From NCBI RefSeq assembly GCF_041248615.1, contig NZ_CP158426.1: DNA of 64,000 nucleotides; one strand, 5' to 3'. Shown here in pieces: positions 5,454 through 25,879 of the stretch. Position 1 is the first letter of the stretch; the number at the start of each line of letters is the position of its first letter. The DNA comes from Escherichia coli. GTDB taxonomy: Bacteria > Pseudomonadota > Gammaproteobacteria > Enterobacterales > Enterobacteriaceae. The notes under the pieces are model-generated. The model was given only the letters and a program-made list of their open reading frames with translations. It had not been told where the DNA came from and ran no database searches. The position numbers and the translations under genes were made by a program.

Positions 5454-6308
5454 TCAGGGTGCAAGCTGTCTGACCCTTTCCCGATATTCTCCCGGAGTAC
5501 AACCAAACTCGCGGACAAACGCCTTGTGAAAAGATGATTCACTGGCATAGCCTACTGACTCAGCGATCACCACAACAGGGAGCATTTCCCGGGAAAACAT
5601 CTGGGCCGCTATTTGTAGACGCAACTTTGTTAATACAGCTAGCGGCGTGGTTCCGGAAACATCACGGAAAAGCTGGGCAAAACTTGCCCGGGACATGTGG
5701 GCGATGCTGGCCAGCGATTCGACGGTCCAGGCGTGTCCTGGCATTTCCAGCATTTGCTGTATTACCGCACCAAGACGTGGATGCAGAAGCAAACTGAGAA
5801 TGTTTTTCTCTGTATTAACCTGTGCAATCCACTCACGCACCGCGAGGGTAAAGAATGTAGCGCAGATCTGGCTACACAGAGCATCCACTCCCGGCATTGC
5901 CGATCTGGATTCCTGTTGTAAAAACGGGATCGCCTCCCTCAGCCAGTTATATTCCACGCTATGGTTCACTGGTGCTACAAACAGCGTTTCCGGCAAAGAC
6001 GTTAAAAAATAACGCGCCGAATGTTGCAGCCGAAGAGTGCCACAGACAATACAGGTCGATTCATTATCGACATGACTCAGGCGATGAGCTGAATTTTGTG
6101 GTAGCAGGACCACATTTCCCGGGCGTAATGTAAAAATCTCTCCCGTCGGCATTTCCAGCTTCGCCGCTCCTTGCGTTAACGCATGCCAACGAATAACCGA
6201 CAATTCCCCGGCACCATGTGGAAGTTGCCAGTCACTTCCTAACACGCAATTCTTATCGATCGTTCCTTGTGGAGCGTTAAGCATCAACAAACGGCTAAGA
6301 GCATCCAT
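5454..6308 (-). CDS. rclR: AraC-family, HOCl-responsive activator of rclABC
   Basis: ORF 5454..6359 trimmed to Met18 (MDALSRLL...), giving 284 aa; C-terminal AraC helix-turn-helix; transcribed divergently from rclA. Confidence 0.85.
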   Translation of the reverse strand: MDALSRLLMLNAPQGTIDKNCVLGSDWQLPHGAGELSVIRWHALTQGAAKLEMPTGEIFTLRPGNVVLLPQNSAHRLSHVDNESTCIVCGTLRLQHSARYFLTSLPETLFVAPVNHSVEYNWLREAIPFLQQESRSAMPGVDALCSQICATFFTLAVREWIAQVNTEKNILSLLLHPRLGAVIQQMLEMPGHAWTVESLASIAHMSRASFAQLFRDVSGTTPLAVLTKLRLQIAAQMFSREMLPVVVIAESVGYASESSFHKAFVREFGCTPGEYRERVRQLAP

Positions 6309-10467: not shown

Positions 10468-10478
10468 TGGATTTGCCC

Positions 10479-11384
10479 CTATATTTCCAGACACCTGTTA
10501 TCACTTAACCCATTACTGGCCTGCTGCCGCAGATATTCCCGTGGCGAGCGATAACCCAGTGCACTATGCGGATGCCATTCGTTATAATGCTCGAACGCCT
10601 CTGCAAGGTTCTTTGCTGCCGTTAACCCGTCTGGTTTAGGCATGATACTGATGTAGTCACGCTTTATCGTTTTCACGAAGCTCTCTGCTATGCCGTTACT
10701 CTCCGGACTCCGCACCGCCGTGTTCTTCGGTTCAAGCCCCAATATCCGGGCAAACTGCCGTGTTTCATTAGCCCGGTAGCATGAACCATTATCCGTCAGC
10801 CACTCTACTGGAGACGCCGGAAGCTCGTTGCCGAAGCGGCGTTCCACCGCTCCCAGCATGACGTCCTGTACTGTTTCACTGTCGAAGCCGCCCGTAGTGA
10901 CTGCCCAGTGCAGTGCCTCACGGTCACAGCAGTCCAGCGCGAACGTGACTCGCAGTTTTTCTCCGTTATCACAGCGGAACTCGAACCCGTCAGAGCACCA
11001 TCGTTGATTGCTTTCTTTCACGGCCACTTTGCCAGTATGTGCCCGTTTCGATGGCGGTACAGCGGTTTTTCGCTCAAGCAACAGCGCATTCTGGCGCATG
11101 ATCCGGTAAACACGTTTGGCATTGATCGCAGGCGTACCATCAAGTTCGGCCTGTCTGCGAAGCAGCGCCCATACCCGACGATAACCATACGTGGGCAGCT
11201 CTCCGATAACATGGTGTATACGGAGAAGCACATCCGTATCATCTGAGTGACGGCTGCGGCGACCATCTTTCCAGTCATCGGTTCGTCTGAGAATTACGTG
11301 CAACTGCGCACGCGACACCCGGAGACAACGGCTGACTAAGCTTACTCCCCATCCCCGGGCAATAAGGGCGCGTGCGCTATCCAC
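10479..11384 (-). CDS. insD: IS2 OrfB (InsD), DDE transposase catalytic component
   Basis: 301-aa ORF starting [15 protein letters not shown]...; overlaps insC as expected for programmed -1 frameshifting in this family. Confidence 0.9.
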
Positions 11385-11707
11385 TTTTTTGCACGCCCGT
11401 ATTCAACGGCTTCTTTAAGGAGTTCATTTTCCATCGTTTTTTTGCCGAGCAGGCGCTGGAGTTCTTTAATCTGCTTCATGGCAGCAGCAAGTTCAGAGGC
11501 AGGAACGACCTGCTCTCCTGCGGCCACAGCAGTAAGACTTCCCTCCTGGTATTGCTTGCGCCAGAGAAATAACTGGCTGGCTGCCACACCGTGTTGCCGG
11601 GCAACAAGGGAGACCTTCATTCCCGGTTCAAAACTCTGCTGAACAATAGCGATCTTTTCCTGTGTAGTACGCCGTCTGCGTTTCTCCGGTCCTAAGACAT
11701 CAATCAT
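11342..11707 (-). CDS. insC: IS2 OrfA (InsC), helix-turn-helix transposase component
   Basis: ORF 11342..11752 trimmed to [13 protein letters not shown] (121 aa). Confidence 0.9.
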
Positions 11708-11798
11708 CTGCTCTCCAATGACTAGTCTAAAAACTAGTATTAAGACTATCACTTATTTAAGTGATATTGGTTGTCTGGAGATTCATGGGGCCAGTCTA

Positions 11799-21294: not shown

Positions 21295-22215
21295 ATGAAA
21301 ACTGTTTCGATAAAACATACTTACTGGGATATAGCTGCTGATATCTATTTCCCTGACGATTTTAATAGTGAAAAAAAGTATCCTGCCATTATCAGCGCCC
21401 ATCCAATTGGAAGCTGCAAAGAACAGACATCGGGTAGTGTGTATGGTGCCGCCCTGGCAAAAGCTGGCTTTATCGTCATTGCTTTTGATGCCAGTTTTCA
21501 GGGAAGCAGCGGTGGAGAACCGCGTTATCTGGAAGATCCAACAATGCGAGTAAAAGACTTCAGCATTGTCGTTGATTACCTTACCACCTTACCTTACGTT
21601 GATGCCGGGCGTATTGGTGTACTGGGTATTTGTGGTGGAGGTGGATATGCCATTAATGCCGCAATGACAGAACGTCGAATTAAAGCTATTGGTACTGTCA
21701 CGGGTGCAAACTACGGGCGTCTTATGCGTGAGGGATTTACAGCGTTTAATCCTATCGGAGCACTCGAAGCGATGGCGCAACAAAGAACAGACGAAGCTAA
21801 CGGCGCAAAACTTCGCGTAGATGATTTACTCCCCTCTTCTCCGGATGCAGCTCTTGAAGCGGGATTAACAGAAATAGACCTTTTTGAAGCCACAGAATAT
21901 TATCGTTCGCCACGAGGCTGTGCACCTAATGGGGTAAATCGTTCGCTATTCTCACATCAGACTGTTGCCGTGGGTTGGGATGCATTTCATCTTGCAGAAG
22001 TCCTGTTAACTCAACCAATAATGGTTGTGGTGGGCGATAGAGTGGGCGCATTTGGTGCCTACCGTGACGGCTGCGAAATTATTGGCCGCGCTGCCTCAAA
22101 ACATAAAGAGCTGGTCGTGGTTGAAGGTTATTCACATTACGACCTGTATGATAAGCCAGAACCTGTGAAACAGGCACTCGAAAAATTAATTCCTTTTTAT
22201 AAAACACATTTGTAA
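21295..22215 (+). CDS. Alpha/beta hydrolase with a Cys nucleophile elbow (dienelactone-hydrolase-like), cytoplasmic
   Basis: 306-aa ORF; GICGGGG in the position where serine hydrolases carry GxSxG; no signal peptide. Confidence 0.75.
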   Translation: MKTVSIKHTYWDIAADIYFPDDFNSEKKYPAIISAHPIGSCKEQTSGSVYGAALAKAGFIVIAFDASFQGSSGGEPRYLEDPTMRVKDFSIVVDYLTTLPYVDAGRIGVLGICGGGGYAINAAMTERRIKAIGTVTGANYGRLMREGFTAFNPIGALEAMAQQRTDEANGAKLRVDDLLPSSPDAALEAGLTEIDLFEATEYYRSPRGCAPNGVNRSLFSHQTVAVGWDAFHLAEVLLTQPIMVVVGDRVGAFGAYRDGCEIIGRAASKHKELVVVEGYSHYDLYDKPEPVKQALEKLIPFYKTHL

Positions 22216-23530: not shown

Positions 23531-24001
23531 ATATCTATTACTCTCCCGAGTGTAAAACTATCAAACCAATGAGTAACCGATACAGCCTCGCAAATTCTTT
23601 CAGATAATTAACCCGTCACTGCGGCACGTTCTCTCATAAGGCGTGCCTGCTGTGTAATCCAGTATGGATCCAGCATAGTTGACGGCTTAATAGACTCAAT
23701 TCCTTTCCCAGGTTACCAACAACGATATCTTGTATAACACCCCAGAAGATACGACATTATGATGAGATGAGGTATGCTCCTCAGCGCCAATCAACGCCAG
23801 GGCTGGGCCAGTTTTGAGATCAGACTCATTCCCGGACTGACTTCAGGCGACATATATCAATGACGTTGGGGCAATAAAAGATAGCCGATGTAATACATCT
23901 ATTCAAATTTGTGATACATGTCAAAAAATTGGTTGACCAAACTCGTTATTTATATAAGGGCACTTACGAAGTGCACTCTTTTTTAAAGCGAGGAAGTACC
24001 A

Positions 24002-24103
24002 ATGAAAGAGAATAAAGTACAACAAATCAGTCATAAACTGATTAATATCGTTGTTTTTGTCGCAATTGTAGAATACGCCTATTTATTTCTCCATTTCTAT
24101 TAA
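24002..24103 (+). CDS. ykgR: Small hydrophobic protein, 33 aa (MKENKVQQISHKLINIVVFVAIVEYAYLFLHFY)
   Basis: Short ORF below the ORF-track cutoff, preceded by aggaag; one predicted transmembrane helix; a degenerate copy lies at about 43320..43392. Confidence 0.6.
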   Translation: MKENKVQQISHKLINIVVFVAIVEYAYLFLHFY

Positions 24104-24429
24104 TAACGGCAATAAACTGTTCACTTCAGTGATATTAAAAAATATGCATCCTCTCCCTTTTTTGTAAGTAATTATTATATCCGTGGGAGAGGAATACACG
24201 CTGTCCGGCAATCAATCAAACTGCGATAAATCATCGGCCAGTAAAATGGAGATAGCCTCCATTCTCGAAAAATTCATACTCTCAGCGAAACCATCACTCA
24301 TCAAGGCGTTTATGGGAGCGTCGCCAATGGCTGCTAACAATGCCAGACTTCCCCGTTGCCGAAATTCCACATACCACAAATGGTCACAGGGATTGGGTGT
24401 TGAAATGATCCGGATGAGCATGTATCTTT

Positions 24430-24453
24430 ATGGTTATGTTATAACATAACAGG
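24430..24453. promoter_or_regulatory. Zur box overlapping the ykgM promoter (palindromic core ATGTTATAACAT)
   Basis: Perfect 12-bp palindrome in an AT-rich context immediately upstream of the ykgM start; matches the Zur operator architecture. Confidence 0.7.
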
Positions 24454-24461
24454 TAAAAATG

Positions 24462-24725
24462 ATGAAGCCCAATATCCATCCTGAGTATCGTACTGTGGTG
24501 TTCCACGACACCAGTGTTGATGAGTACTTTAAAATCGGCTCGACTATCAAAACAGACCGTGAGATTGAGCTGGATGGCGTAACGTATCCGTACGTGACAA
24601 TTGATGTCTCTTCTAAATCGCACCCGTTCTATACAGGGAAGCTGAGAACAGTGGCATCAGAAGGAAATGTTGCACGATTCACCCAACGTTTTGGTCGTTT
24701 TGTTAGCACGAAAAAGGGGGCATGA
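24462..24725 (+). CDS. ykgM: Zinc-independent paralog of ribosomal protein L31 (type B)
   Basis: ORF 24459..24725; protein [16 protein letters not shown]... lacks the CxxC zinc ribbon (87 aa from the second ATG). Confidence 0.9.
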
Positions 24726-24865
24726 TGAAAGTCCTTAACTCTCTGCGTACCGCAAAAGAACGCCATCCAGACTGTCAGATTGTGAAGCGAAAAGGACGGC
24801 TATATGTGATTTGTAAATCTAATCCACGTTTTAAGGCCGTTCAGGGTCGTAAGAAAAAACGTTGA
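24725..24865 (+). CDS. ykgO: Zinc-independent paralog of ribosomal protein L36 (46 aa)
   Basis: Short [49 protein letters not shown]; its start overlaps the ykgM stop (ATGA). Confidence 0.85.
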
Positions 24866-24915
24866 TTCAAAATTCGACGAATTAACGATATTTGTCTGAT
24901 TAATAATCAGACCGG

Positions 24916-24955
24916 ATTAATGTTGGTGTATTTATTACACCAGCATTAATTTTCC
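24916..24955 (+). terminator. Rho-independent terminator candidate after ykgMO (attaatgttggtgta ... tacaccagcattaat, then T-run)
   Basis: Inverted repeat followed by TTTT, read from the sequence. Confidence 0.55.
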
Positions 24956-25879
24956 TGAGGATGTATCTTCCTGTTCATTTAAGGTCAACTGCCTGACGTT
25001 TCTCTCCGAATATTCCATTATATTAATGTTGACTTGTTGACCAGGTGCGCCCTGTATGCTGGCATCAACTCTCTTTTAGACTGAACACGCCACTCAGTTT
25101 CCTCCCTTTGCGACGCAGCCTGCATTTACACTCAAACGGTTAAGATGATAAATGTGGTAAATCTGTTGGTACTGACATAAAAACGTTTACGCCACAGGAA
25201 CGGCCTGATCCACCGGTAACCCCATCGCCGACGTTCGAGTGCCAGTTAGAGTAACGCGCACAGATGACTGAATGCAGTGCCCTGGCAAAGAGGCCATCGT
25301 TCCTGTGACAACTGGCAGTCTTCGTTTAACTTCACTTAATTTGGCTCTTAGGGGGCTTACCGGACAGATGACGTACTTACACCTGTTTAATTTTTCATCA
25401 CTTATTGGGATGAACACCCATAACCATTTTGTGCGGCATGTTAATCCATTAAAACACCTTACTGATTGGCAAATCATCTTTAATTATGACTCATGATAGT
25501 TTTATATTCTATTTCTTATCATTTAAACTTGTTTTTTTACTAGTCCATTACACAACACATTAAGACTATTCCTAACACCTCAGGGCAAAGTTCCTGGCTA
25601 ATATAAAATGCAAGTAAGAATTGAACGTTATATTGCCAATAACCTTATGAAACTGAATGTCTTTTTCTTCTTATCAAAAAAGCAATATTTTCATTTTTTG
25701 TAAATATTGACTTAACCATGGAATTCCTTTTCTGTTCACATATTGACACTCATCAGGAAAAAAACATAAATTTAAACCTAATCGAAATAATTAAAACTTA
25801 ATCTCGTTTAACCTATATTGATATGTGCTACGTATCTTATTTACTTCCGATTTACTAAAGAAACTGAATGTACCTGTAA

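What the first reader, a model, noticed from the sequence alone, without database searches (positions are those of the whole stretch)
24002..24103. Small membrane protein ykgR upstream of Zur-regulated ykgMO, with a degenerate duplicate near thrW
A 33-aa hydrophobic ORF sits just upstream of the Zur box. A second locus (about 43320..43600) retains the ykgR 3' half, the last ~30 bp of ykgO and the terminator but has lost ykgM and most of ykgO. This implies an old duplication of the zinc-starvation ribosomal-paralog locus followed by loss of the coding core.
Basis: seen in the sequence. Interest (0 to 1): 0.4.

Follow-up and report, generated by a model that had tools for sequence, protein, structure and literature searches.

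The report
Known ykgR gene plus truncated relic
The 33-codon ORF is the known E. coli small membrane protein gene ykgR, and the second locus near thrW is a dead, already auto-annotated fragment of a ykgR-ykgM-ykgO locus, so the finding is real but ordinary.

Summary
Window 24002..24103 is ykgR (NF041474, 78 bits). It lies 334 bp upstream of the only Zur-box palindrome in the window (24437..24451), which precedes ykgM-ykgO.

Locus 2 matches locus 1 in two collinear blocks:
- 43324..43440 matches 24035..24152 at 90%: ykgR codons 12-33, the stop codon and 49 nt.
- 43440..43592 matches 24829..24981 at 75%: the last 11 ykgO codons plus the terminator region.
- 676 bp (Zur box, ykgM, most of ykgO) are missing between the blocks.

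It is not a REP element or a generic terminator. RefSeq already labels it a partial YkgR pseudogene. The same junction occurs in 900 of 5426 complete E. coli genomes. K-12 lacks it.

The "old duplication then decay" reading is only partly supported. Rare E. coli genomes carry an intact ykgR joined to the same deletion scar and ykgO tail, with no ykgMO, ecp or pao genes beside it. That ykgR shares three derived synonymous changes with locus 2. All five fixed locus 1 versus locus 2 differences in ykgR are synonymous. All seven later allele-specific changes are non-synonymous.

So the core was lost first, ykgR stayed under selection, and the 5' truncation came later. Locus 2 is most likely a remnant of that alternative haplotype.

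The parts
24002..24103 (+). ykgR: intact 33-aa small membrane protein gene with a polar N-terminus (residues 1-12) and a C-terminal hydrophobic helix
   Evidence: ORF. NF041474 78.1 bits, cutoff 40. Annotated as ykgR in K-12 and other genomes.
24035..24152 (+). Block A of locus 1: ykgR codons 12-33, stop codon and 49 nt of 3' flank; the part repeated at locus 2
   Evidence: BLAST, 90% over 118 nt, E=4e-35.
24153..24828 (+). 676-bp segment present at locus 1 and absent from locus 2: part of the ykgR-ykgM spacer, the Zur box, ykgM and the first 35 codons of ykgO
   Evidence: Gap between the two collinear BLAST blocks.
24437..24451 (.). Zur-box-like palindrome TGTTATAACATAACA just upstream of ykgM
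   Evidence: Only site in the window; 0.03 expected by chance. Zur repression of ykgM is established in PMC4219657 and PMC9825181.
24459..24725 (+). ykgM, type B (zinc-free) ribosomal protein L31; the K-12 start corresponds to 24462
   Evidence: NF002462 122.8 bits, cutoff 86.
24725..24865 (+). ykgO, type B ribosomal protein L36
   Evidence: NF002021 90.9 bits, cutoff 70.
24829..24981 (+). Block B of locus 1: last 11 codons and stop of ykgO plus the downstream hairpins, including the 17-bp terminator stem at 24914..24952 followed by a U-rich tail
   Evidence: BLAST, 75% over 154 nt, E=2e-27. Fold -32.2 kcal/mol, z=-6.1.
43324..43392 (+). ykgR pseudogene fragment: codons 12-33 plus stop. There is no ATG/GTG/TTG start in frame, and an in-frame TGA lies one codon upstream of the homology boundary, at 43321..43323.
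   Evidence: Sequence read; no ORF in this frame. NF041474 36.1 bits, below the cutoff of 40, matching profile positions 12-33. PGAP marks it 'incomplete; missing N-terminus'.
43393..43440 (+). Copy of the ykgR 3' flank, ending at the deletion junction (ATCCT|TTTC)
   Evidence: Only one fixed difference from E. coli locus 1 in 49 nt.
43441..43476 (+). ykgO tail remnant: TTT CAA GCT GTT CAG CGG CGT AAG AAA AAG TAT TAA, translating to FQAVQRRKKKY* against [11 protein letters not shown] in YkgO
   Evidence: Eight fixed differences in 33 nt, four of them at first or second codon positions. No YkgO with this tail among hits from 5.8 billion protein clusters.
43477..43592 (+). Decayed copy of the ykgO downstream region. 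The long hairpin survives (43527..43560), but the first hairpin is broken and the U-tract is lost.
   Evidence: Alignment. Fold -25.6 kcal/mol, z=-2.4.
42228..43112 (+). LysR-family regulator gene (LysR1) that always accompanies locus 2
   Evidence: Pfam HTH_1 plus LysR_substrate. 907 genomes carry the LysR1 3' end together with locus 2, against 900 with the junction; none has LysR1 alone.
43673..43903 (+). C-terminal remnant of a second LysR gene (LysR2, the yagP homologue). The BhsA-like and SDR genes that lie between locus 2 and LysR2 in other strains are deleted here.
   Evidence: Pfam LysR_substrate positions 137-207. Comparison with EC974. Match to K-12 yagP.
44151..44226 (-). thrW, tRNA-Thr (CGU), an island integration hotspot
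   Evidence: ARAGORN.

Best explanation
Locus 1 (24002..24103) is the known ykgR gene. It encodes a 33-residue single-helix membrane protein that the signal recognition particle recognises post-translationally; its physiological role is unknown. It is a separate gene 334 bp upstream of the Zur-repressed ykgM-ykgO promoter.

Locus 2 (43324..43592) is a non-functional relic. It consists of a ykgR fragment lacking promoter, ribosome-binding site, start codon and codons 1-11, joined through a 676-bp deletion scar to the last 11 codons of ykgO and a decayed terminator.

Shown:
- The same scar and ykgO tail occur next to an intact, sole ykgR in an alternative E. coli haplotype ('X-type': fdeC, ykgP remnant, ykgR, scar, BhsA-like, SDR, LysR2). 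This haplotype lacks ykgMO, ecp and pao at this locus.
- Locus 2 and X-type ykgR share three derived synonymous states.

Inferred order of events:
1. The ykgM-ykgO core was deleted.
2. The adjacent ykgR stayed intact and under purifying selection for a long time while the ykgO tail drifted.
3. An X-type segment starting at ykgR codon 12 became joined, through one illegitimate junction, behind LysR1 of a chromosome carrying the full ykgR-ykgMO-ecp-pao region.
4. The truncated copy then decayed neutrally.

On this view locus 2 is a footprint of recombination between two haplotypes of one locus, not a paralogue that decayed in place.
For: - Identity of ykgR, ykgM and ykgO.
- What is known about YkgR: (PMC7549839, PMC12648545).
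- Two-block homology and the 676-bp gap.
- No start codon or ORF at locus 2.
- PGAP pseudogene call.
- X-type haplotype in three complete genomes. Ten further X-type loci shown for a BhsA-like protein that the index lists in 763 blocks of the collection.
- Thirteen ordinary locus 1 sequences are ATT/GTC/ATT at 24043/24061/24067, whereas X-type and every locus 2 allele are ATC/GTT/ATA. The ~92%-identical lineage L006 carries the locus 1 state at all three sites. L007 carries it at 24043 and 24067 but has GTT, the locus 2 state, at 24061.
- Five fixed locus 1 versus locus 2 differences in 66 coding nt are all third-position synonymous (P about 0.001 under neutrality). Seven later allele-specific changes are all non-synonymous (Fisher p=0.0013).
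- The ykgO tail has 8 fixed changes in 33 nt, including 4 replacement-position changes, on the same branch.
- Four derived characters plus a 9-nt deletion unite all locus 2 alleles. X-types keep the ancestral states, including the ykgO TGA stop, and a longer junction.
- A simple crossover between locus 1 and today's truncated locus 2 cannot give X-type, because the first locus-2-like site lies only 8 nt inside the shared block.
- An X-type locus with locus-1-like states (L033) shows allelic exchange inside block A.
Against: - The direction of events is inferred, not shown. The data root only on about 270 nt, and the four deep lineages (two X-type, two locus 2 groups) are roughly equidistant at 94-95.5% over 1.6 kb.
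- The presumed parental chromosome with LysR1 but no locus 2 was not found in 5426 genomes.
- Block B is 21-25% diverged from locus 1, more than the 15% seen between E. coli and the ~92% lineage L006. This needs either an old or foreign origin of the X haplotype or fast neutral drift.
- The substitution counts are small (5 and 7).
- The 49-nt ykgR 3' flank is far better conserved than the synonymous sites (1/49 against 5 of about 17, p=0.003). The model does not explain this.
- Sister Escherichia species could not be surveyed.
Confidence: 0.5

Rival explanations
1. One reading: an ancient intragenomic duplication placed a second ykgR-ykgM-ykgO copy near thrW. The copy lost its core by deletion, kept a functional ykgR for a while, and later lost its 5' half. 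X-type genomes arose secondarily, by homologous recombination between the two ykgR copies, which deleted the 19 kb between them.
For: The two loci are direct repeats 19.3 kb apart, so recombination between them would produce exactly the X-type arrangement. The synonymous-only pattern is also compatible if the second ykgR was once full-length and functional. The high block B divergence fits an old paralogue.
Against: No genome has a second ykgR 5' half, so the required full-length duplicate is unobserved. With the truncated locus 2 seen in all 900 genomes, the crossover would have to fall within the first 8 nt of homology. The two deep X-type lineages both keep ancestral states and the longer junction that all locus 2 alleles lack, so X would have to come from unsampled basal locus 2 alleles. 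A tandem-duplication version predicts a copy truncated from birth and equal divergence of the two blocks, and neither is seen (6/115 against 33/152, p=1e-4). The flanking genes show no paralogy.
Confidence: 0.35
2. The similarity is only a generic terminator or a REP-like dispersed repeat, so there is no specific relationship to ykgR-ykgMO.
For: Block B contains hairpins.
Against: The match includes 69 nt of ykgR coding sequence and 36 nt of ykgO coding sequence in the correct order and orientation. There are no other copies in the window. E. coli genomes carry 1 copy as a median and at most 4. The fragment scores 36 bits on the YkgR HMM. There are no Rfam hits.
Confidence: 0.01
3. Locus 2 is still functional. 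It might encode a helix-only peptide started by frameshifting from the ATG at 43320 (ATGAAAA|CTG...), or an RNA or regulatory element in the well-conserved 49-nt flank.
For: ATG plus an AAAA run is conserved at the left edge in all 7 alleles. The 49-nt flank has only one fixed difference from locus 1.
Against: There is no in-frame start and an in-frame TGA sits one codon upstream of the homology boundary. Allele-specific changes are all non-synonymous and include helix-breaking L to P, I to T and F to S. No promoter-like site was found on the + strand upstream. The junction region has no fold signal, z=+0.37. There are no Rfam matches.
Confidence: 0.04

Closest known systems
ykgR (b4671) of E. 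coli K-12, small membrane protein YkgR (NCBIfam NF041474, Pfam PF28062)
   Same: Locus 1 encodes a protein with 100% of the expected sequence features, the same length, and the same position upstream of ykgM-ykgO. Locus 2 matches profile positions 12-33.
   Different: Locus 2 lacks the promoter, start codon and codons 1-11, and scores below the family cutoff (36.1 against 40 bits). It is a pseudogene fragment, not a member gene.
Zur-repressed ykgM-ykgO (type B L31/L36) zinc-starvation ribosomal paralogue operon
   Same: Locus 1 has the Zur-box palindrome, ykgM, ykgO and a strong terminator. Locus 2 keeps the last 11 ykgO codons and the terminator hairpin.
   Different: Locus 2 has no Zur box, no ykgM and only 11 of 46 ykgO codons. 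Those codons have drifted to a tail (FQAVQRRKKKY) found in no known YkgO.
RefSeq/PGAP pseudogene annotation 'small membrane protein YkgR; incomplete; missing N-terminus' (for example LQ124_RS23680 in NZ_OW967178.1)
   Same: Exactly the 69-nt stretch 43324..43392. It is annotated the same way in O157:H7, EC974 and other genomes.
   Different: The annotation does not record the adjoining deletion scar, the ykgO tail or the link to the X-type haplotype.
Lone ykgM paralogue in the urease island of some E. coli (for example pB39_V, STEC411)
   Same: It is another partial copy of the same locus in the E. coli pangenome, 78-81% identical to ykgM.
   Different: It keeps the part that locus 2 lacks (window 24399..24726) and has no ykgR or ykgO. 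It is not in this window, and no link to locus 2 was demonstrated.

Membership tests
YkgR small membrane protein (NF041474 / PF28062) | HMM score above the curated cutoff of 40 bits | tested here: met
   Locus 1 scores 78.1 bits over profile positions 1-33. The locus 2 fragment scores 36.1 bits over positions 12-33, which is below the cutoff, so only locus 1 is a member.
YkgR small membrane protein (NF041474 / PF28062) | Complete ORF of about 33 codons with a start codon and ribosome-binding site | tested here: met
   Locus 1 has GAGGAAG 7 nt before the ATG at 24002 and a 33-codon ORF. Locus 2 does not meet this: it has no ATG/GTG/TTG in frame and an in-frame TGA one codon upstream of the homology boundary.
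YkgR small membrane protein (NF041474 / PF28062) | Membrane insertion and expression of the protein | not testable with these tools
   Literature only: the plasmid-expressed His-tagged protein was detected, and it cross-linked to SRP post-translationally (PMC7549839).
Zur-regulated ykgM-ykgO operon | Type B L31 and L36 genes preceded by a Zur-box palindrome | tested here: met
   Locus 1: NF002462 122.8 bits, NF002021 90.9 bits, and the palindrome at 24437..24451, unique in the window. Locus 2 does not meet this: the Zur box, ykgM and 35 ykgO codons are absent.
REP / generic terminator repeat | Many dispersed copies per genome, with similarity limited to a palindromic unit | tested here: not met
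   There are two copies in the window. Genomes carry a median of 1 and at most 4. The similarity spans coding sequence of two genes.
Intragenomic duplicate (paralogue) that decayed in place | Two copies derived from one within a genome, with some genome showing both in fuller form | tested here: inconclusive
   No second ykgR 5' half was found in 5067 genomes. The intact sister of locus 2 occupies the locus 1 position in X-type genomes. The direction of events cannot be rooted with the available data.
Pseudogene under relaxed constraint | Loss of the synonymous bias in substitutions after inactivation | tested here: met
   There were 5 synonymous and 0 non-synonymous changes before the allele split, and 0 synonymous and 7 non-synonymous changes after it (Fisher p=0.0013).

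The most novel reading that the evidence does not exclude
Locus 2 is the footprint of an old recombination event with one illegitimate end. That event fused two deeply diverged haplotypes of the fdeC-thrW region: one with ykgMO-ecp-pao, and one with only ykgR next to a ykgMO deletion scar. The surviving X-type strains are then natural ykgMO/ecp/pao-less E. coli in which YkgR has been kept unchanged at the protein level. This would be the first comparative evidence that YkgR has a selected function independent of the zinc-starvation ribosomal paralogues.
Probability: 0.4. Interest if true: 0.3.

Novelty: already known. Interest (0 to 1): 0.18.

Why it matters
Little changes for genome biology. 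ykgR and the Zur-regulated ykgMO operon are textbook K-12 features, and the second locus is a dead fragment that annotation pipelines already flag.

There are two modest gains:
- Purifying selection on the 33-residue YkgR protein is documented. The protein is identical across haplotypes that differ at synonymous sites, and the gene is retained where ykgMO is deleted. This supports YkgR being a real, independently functional small protein.
- The relic marks a structurally polymorphic, recombination-prone stretch between fdeC and thrW. Natural strains lacking ykgMO, ecp and pao at this locus exist there and could be used for phenotyping.

Tried and rejected
- **Species-representative genome scan.** Sister Escherichia species therefore could not be surveyed.
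- **Exhaustive HMMER search with YkgR.** It gave only 9 hits, all Escherichia-like variants or assembly artefacts. P0008, which looked like an alternative N-terminus, is an IS2 insertion at a contig edge.
- **Search for an intact YkgO with the locus 2 tail (FQAVQRRKKKY).** None was found.
- **Plasmid search.** Hits are mislabelled chromosomes or F' factors. Salmonella, Klebsiella and Enterobacter match only the ykgM-ykgO coding sequence.
- **Possible link between the NmrA/BhsA-like genes beside ykgR in L007 and the SDR/BhsA-like genes beside locus 2.** No specific similarity.
- **Possible larger segmental duplication.** The gene upstream of locus 1 (window 21295..22215, a hydrolase-type ORF, not a LysR gene) shows no similarity to LysR1, the gene upstream of locus 2.
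- **Search for a lineage with intact ykgMO next to the BhsA-SDR-LysR2 cassette.** The cassette occurs at about 90% amino-acid identity in Pantoea, Atlantibacter and Enterobacter, in unrelated contexts.
- **Rfam scan of locus 1.** Nothing meaningful.
- **ORFs in the ykgR-ykgM spacer and across locus 2.** No Pfam match.
- **Global MAFFT alignment of the two loci.** It misplaced block B and was replaced by local BLAST.

Full report
**Source and observation.**
The window is E. coli. Its closest complete genome is NZ_OW967178.1, which is 100% identical over 3 kb around locus 2 and 98.9% identical across the thrW-proA segment just beyond it.

The ORF at 24002..24103 encodes MKENKVQQISHKLINIVVFVAIVEYAYLFLHFY. 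It scores 78.1 bits on NCBIfam NF041474, 'small membrane protein YkgR', where the cutoff is 40. K-12 annotates the same gene (b4671) in the same place upstream of ykgM and ykgO.

ykgM and ykgO follow and score 122.8 and 90.9 bits on the type B L31 and L36 models. The only Zur-box-like palindrome in the 64 kb window, TGTTATAACATAACA, lies at 24437..24451, directly before ykgM. That is 334 bp after the ykgR stop codon, so ykgR is a neighbour of the Zur-controlled promoter rather than a gene under it.

Published work shows that YkgR can be expressed, is a small membrane protein, and is bound post-translationally by SRP. Its function is unknown (PMC7549839, PMC12648545).

**The second locus.**
Local alignment gives two collinear blocks.
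- Block A: 43324..43440 matches 24035..24152 (106/118 identical, E=4e-35). It covers ykgR codons 12-33, the stop codon and 49 nt.
- Block B: 43440..43592 matches 24829..24981 (116/154 identical, E=2e-27). It covers the last 11 ykgO codons, the stop codon and the downstream hairpins.

Locus 1 positions 24153..24828 (676 bp) are missing from locus 2. That segment holds the Zur box, ykgM and 35 ykgO codons. thrW lies 559 bp further on.

Locus 2 has no in-frame start codon, and a TGA sits one codon upstream of the homology boundary. The long terminator hairpin survives without its U-tract, with z=-2.4 against z=-6.1 at locus 1.

The match spans coding sequence of two genes. Nothing else in the window matches. 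Genomes hold 1 copy as a median and 4 at most.

**Already annotated, and its distribution.**
PGAP labels 43324..43392 as a partial YkgR pseudogene, 'missing N-terminus', in every genome inspected.
- The deletion junction is present in 900 of 5426 complete E. coli genomes, including O157:H7.
- It is always accompanied by the upstream LysR gene: 907 genomes carry both, and none has that LysR gene alone.
- K-12 lacks locus 2 because window 39512..43672 is deleted there.
- The ykgR 5' half and promoter occur in 5067 of 5426 genomes and are effectively single copy. No complete genome has a second full ykgR.
- YkgR itself is a very narrow family: only 9 hits were found in 1.84 billion representative proteins.
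- Salmonella, Klebsiella and Enterobacter match only the ykgM-ykgO coding sequence.

**Substitution pattern.**
I aligned seven locus 2 alleles, which fall into two groups about 6% apart, with three E. coli locus 1 sequences and a ~92%-identical Escherichia lineage.

Fixed differences between locus 2 and locus 1:

| Region | Fixed differences | Note |
|---|---|---|
| ykgR coding | 5 of 66 nt | all third-position synonymous |
| ykgR 3' flank | 1 of 49 nt | |
| ykgO tail | 8 of 33 nt | 4 at replacement positions |
| Downstream of ykgO | 24 of 116 nt | |

After the two allele groups split, the ykgR part gained 7 changes. All are non-synonymous and include L to P, I to T and F to S.

Five synonymous changes out of five has a probability of about 0.001 under neutrality. 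The switch from synonymous to non-synonymous gives Fisher p=0.0013.

No YkgO with the locus 2 tail exists among database hits, so the tail drifted after inactivation. It follows that ykgO was destroyed first. The adjoining ykgR remained a selected gene for a long time, and its 5' truncation came later.

**The intact sister haplotype.**
I built a chimeric query from the locus 1 5' half and block A joined to the locus 2 junction and block B. It found three complete genomes (6EVA, wlxctx60 and GF4-3) with a single locus. Its order is fdeC, ykgP remnant, intact ykgR, the same scar and ykgO tail, BhsA-like gene, SDR gene and LysR2. None of the 19 kb from ykgM to LysR1 is present.

The index lists the exact BhsA-like protein of this 'X-type' haplotype in 763 blocks of the collection. 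All ten places shown are X-type.

X-type YkgR is identical in protein sequence to the standard one. Its gene has ATC/GTT/ATA at 24043/24061/24067, like every locus 2 allele. All 13 ordinary locus 1 sequences have ATT/GTC/ATT. L006 agrees with locus 1 at all three sites, while L007 agrees at two and has GTT at 24061.

X-types keep ancestral states where all locus 2 alleles are derived: GCC, TTT, CAG and the ykgO TGA stop. They also keep a junction that is 9 nt longer. One X-type locus (L033) has locus-1-like states at the three sites, which shows allelic exchange within block A.

**Interpretation.**
A crossover between locus 1 and today's truncated locus 2 cannot generate X-type, because the first locus-2-like site is only 8 nt into the shared block.

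A tandem-duplication origin predicts a copy truncated from birth and equal divergence of both blocks. Neither holds: fixed differences are 6/115 against 33/152, p=1e-4.

The best fit is that locus 2 is a remnant of the X-type haplotype, joined from ykgR codon 12 behind LysR1 of a chromosome carrying the full region.

This is an inference, with three main weaknesses:
- The four deep lineages are about equidistant.
- The parental LysR1-without-locus-2 chromosome is unsampled.
- Block B is more diverged (21-25%) than the same region between E. coli and the ~92% lineage (15%).

A true ancient duplication with a once full-length second ykgR remains a serious rival. The strong conservation of the 49-nt 3' flank relative to synonymous sites (p=0.003) is unexplained.

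**Verdict.**
The gene is known, and the relic is real but dead and already flagged by annotation. The evolutionary reading needs revision rather than rejection. Interest is low. The useful by-products are evidence of purifying selection on YkgR independent of ykgMO, and the existence of natural strains lacking ykgMO, ecp and pao at this locus.

Noticed in passing
window 10470..11797: An IS2-like element (136-aa and 301-aa transposase ORFs on the minus strand) interrupts an AraC-type HTH regulator gene. X-type and other genomes are contiguous across this point.
   Followed up: partly
window 43962..44018 and 44082..44138: A 57-nt direct repeat (89% identical, spaced 120 nt) lies just downstream of the thrW 3' end. 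The window has 120 bp more here than its closest genome, NZ_OW967178.1. The K-12 CP4-6 right end matches 44082..44202. These are probably old island attachment-site remnants.
   Followed up: partly
window 23960..23983: A terminator-like hairpin with a T-run (GCACTTACGAAGTGC ACTCTTTTTT) lies only about 18 nt upstream of the ykgR start codon, just before its ribosome-binding site. Its role is unknown; it could be an upstream-gene terminator or a leader element.
   Followed up: no
L010 3000..3263 (NZ_OQ420472.1) and L011 (CP061244.1): Some E. coli carry a lone ykgM paralogue, 78-81% identical, downstream of ureG in a urease island and next to a hok/gef gene. It has no ykgR or ykgO. Its homology spans window 24399..24726, which is part of the segment locus 2 lacks.
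   Followed up: partly
L005 1..92 (GCA_002809875.1): An IS2 end is inserted into ykgR at codon 11/12, the same position where locus 2 homology begins. This suggests an insertion or breakage hotspot.
   Followed up: partly
L006 4001..4954 (GCA_900603405.1, about 92% identical to E. coli): In this Escherichia lineage ykgR carries two compensating frameshifts, the ykgO tail has a 6-nt deletion, and no ykgM or ykgO genes were called. The whole locus appears to be decaying there.
   Followed up: no
window 43673: The LysR2 remnant begins at the same position where K-12 yagP homology begins, although the two strains have different left breakpoints (43681 here, 39511 in K-12). The shared right-hand deletion endpoint is unexplained.
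   Followed up: no
L017 about 6200..6235 (GF4-3): The deletion scar carries the 9-nt unit TTCAAGCTG three times in tandem. 6EVA has one unit plus an extra TTTCTGCTT. The junction is a slippage-prone site.
   Followed up: no
window 24104..24152 and 43393..43440: The 49-nt ykgR 3' flank has only one fixed difference between the loci, against 5 at about 17 synonymous sites (p=0.003). Minus-strand ORFs overlapping it share ...EVNSLLPLLIEME at both loci (24083..24211 and 43372..43446). No explanation was found.
   Followed up: partly
L039, L041-L043: The LysR-SDR-BhsA-like cassette that flanks locus 2 in other strains occurs at about 90% amino-acid identity in Atlantibacter, Pantoea and Enterobacter. 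It is also found in E. coli next to a resolvase, which suggests it moves horizontally.
   Followed up: partly
L003 and L014, from about 2797 and 3667: In some strains an AbiEii/AbiEi toxin-antitoxin pair and a reverse-transcriptase gene replace the sequence from the middle of the locus 2 block B hairpin onwards, at the position equivalent to window ~43555.
   Followed up: no
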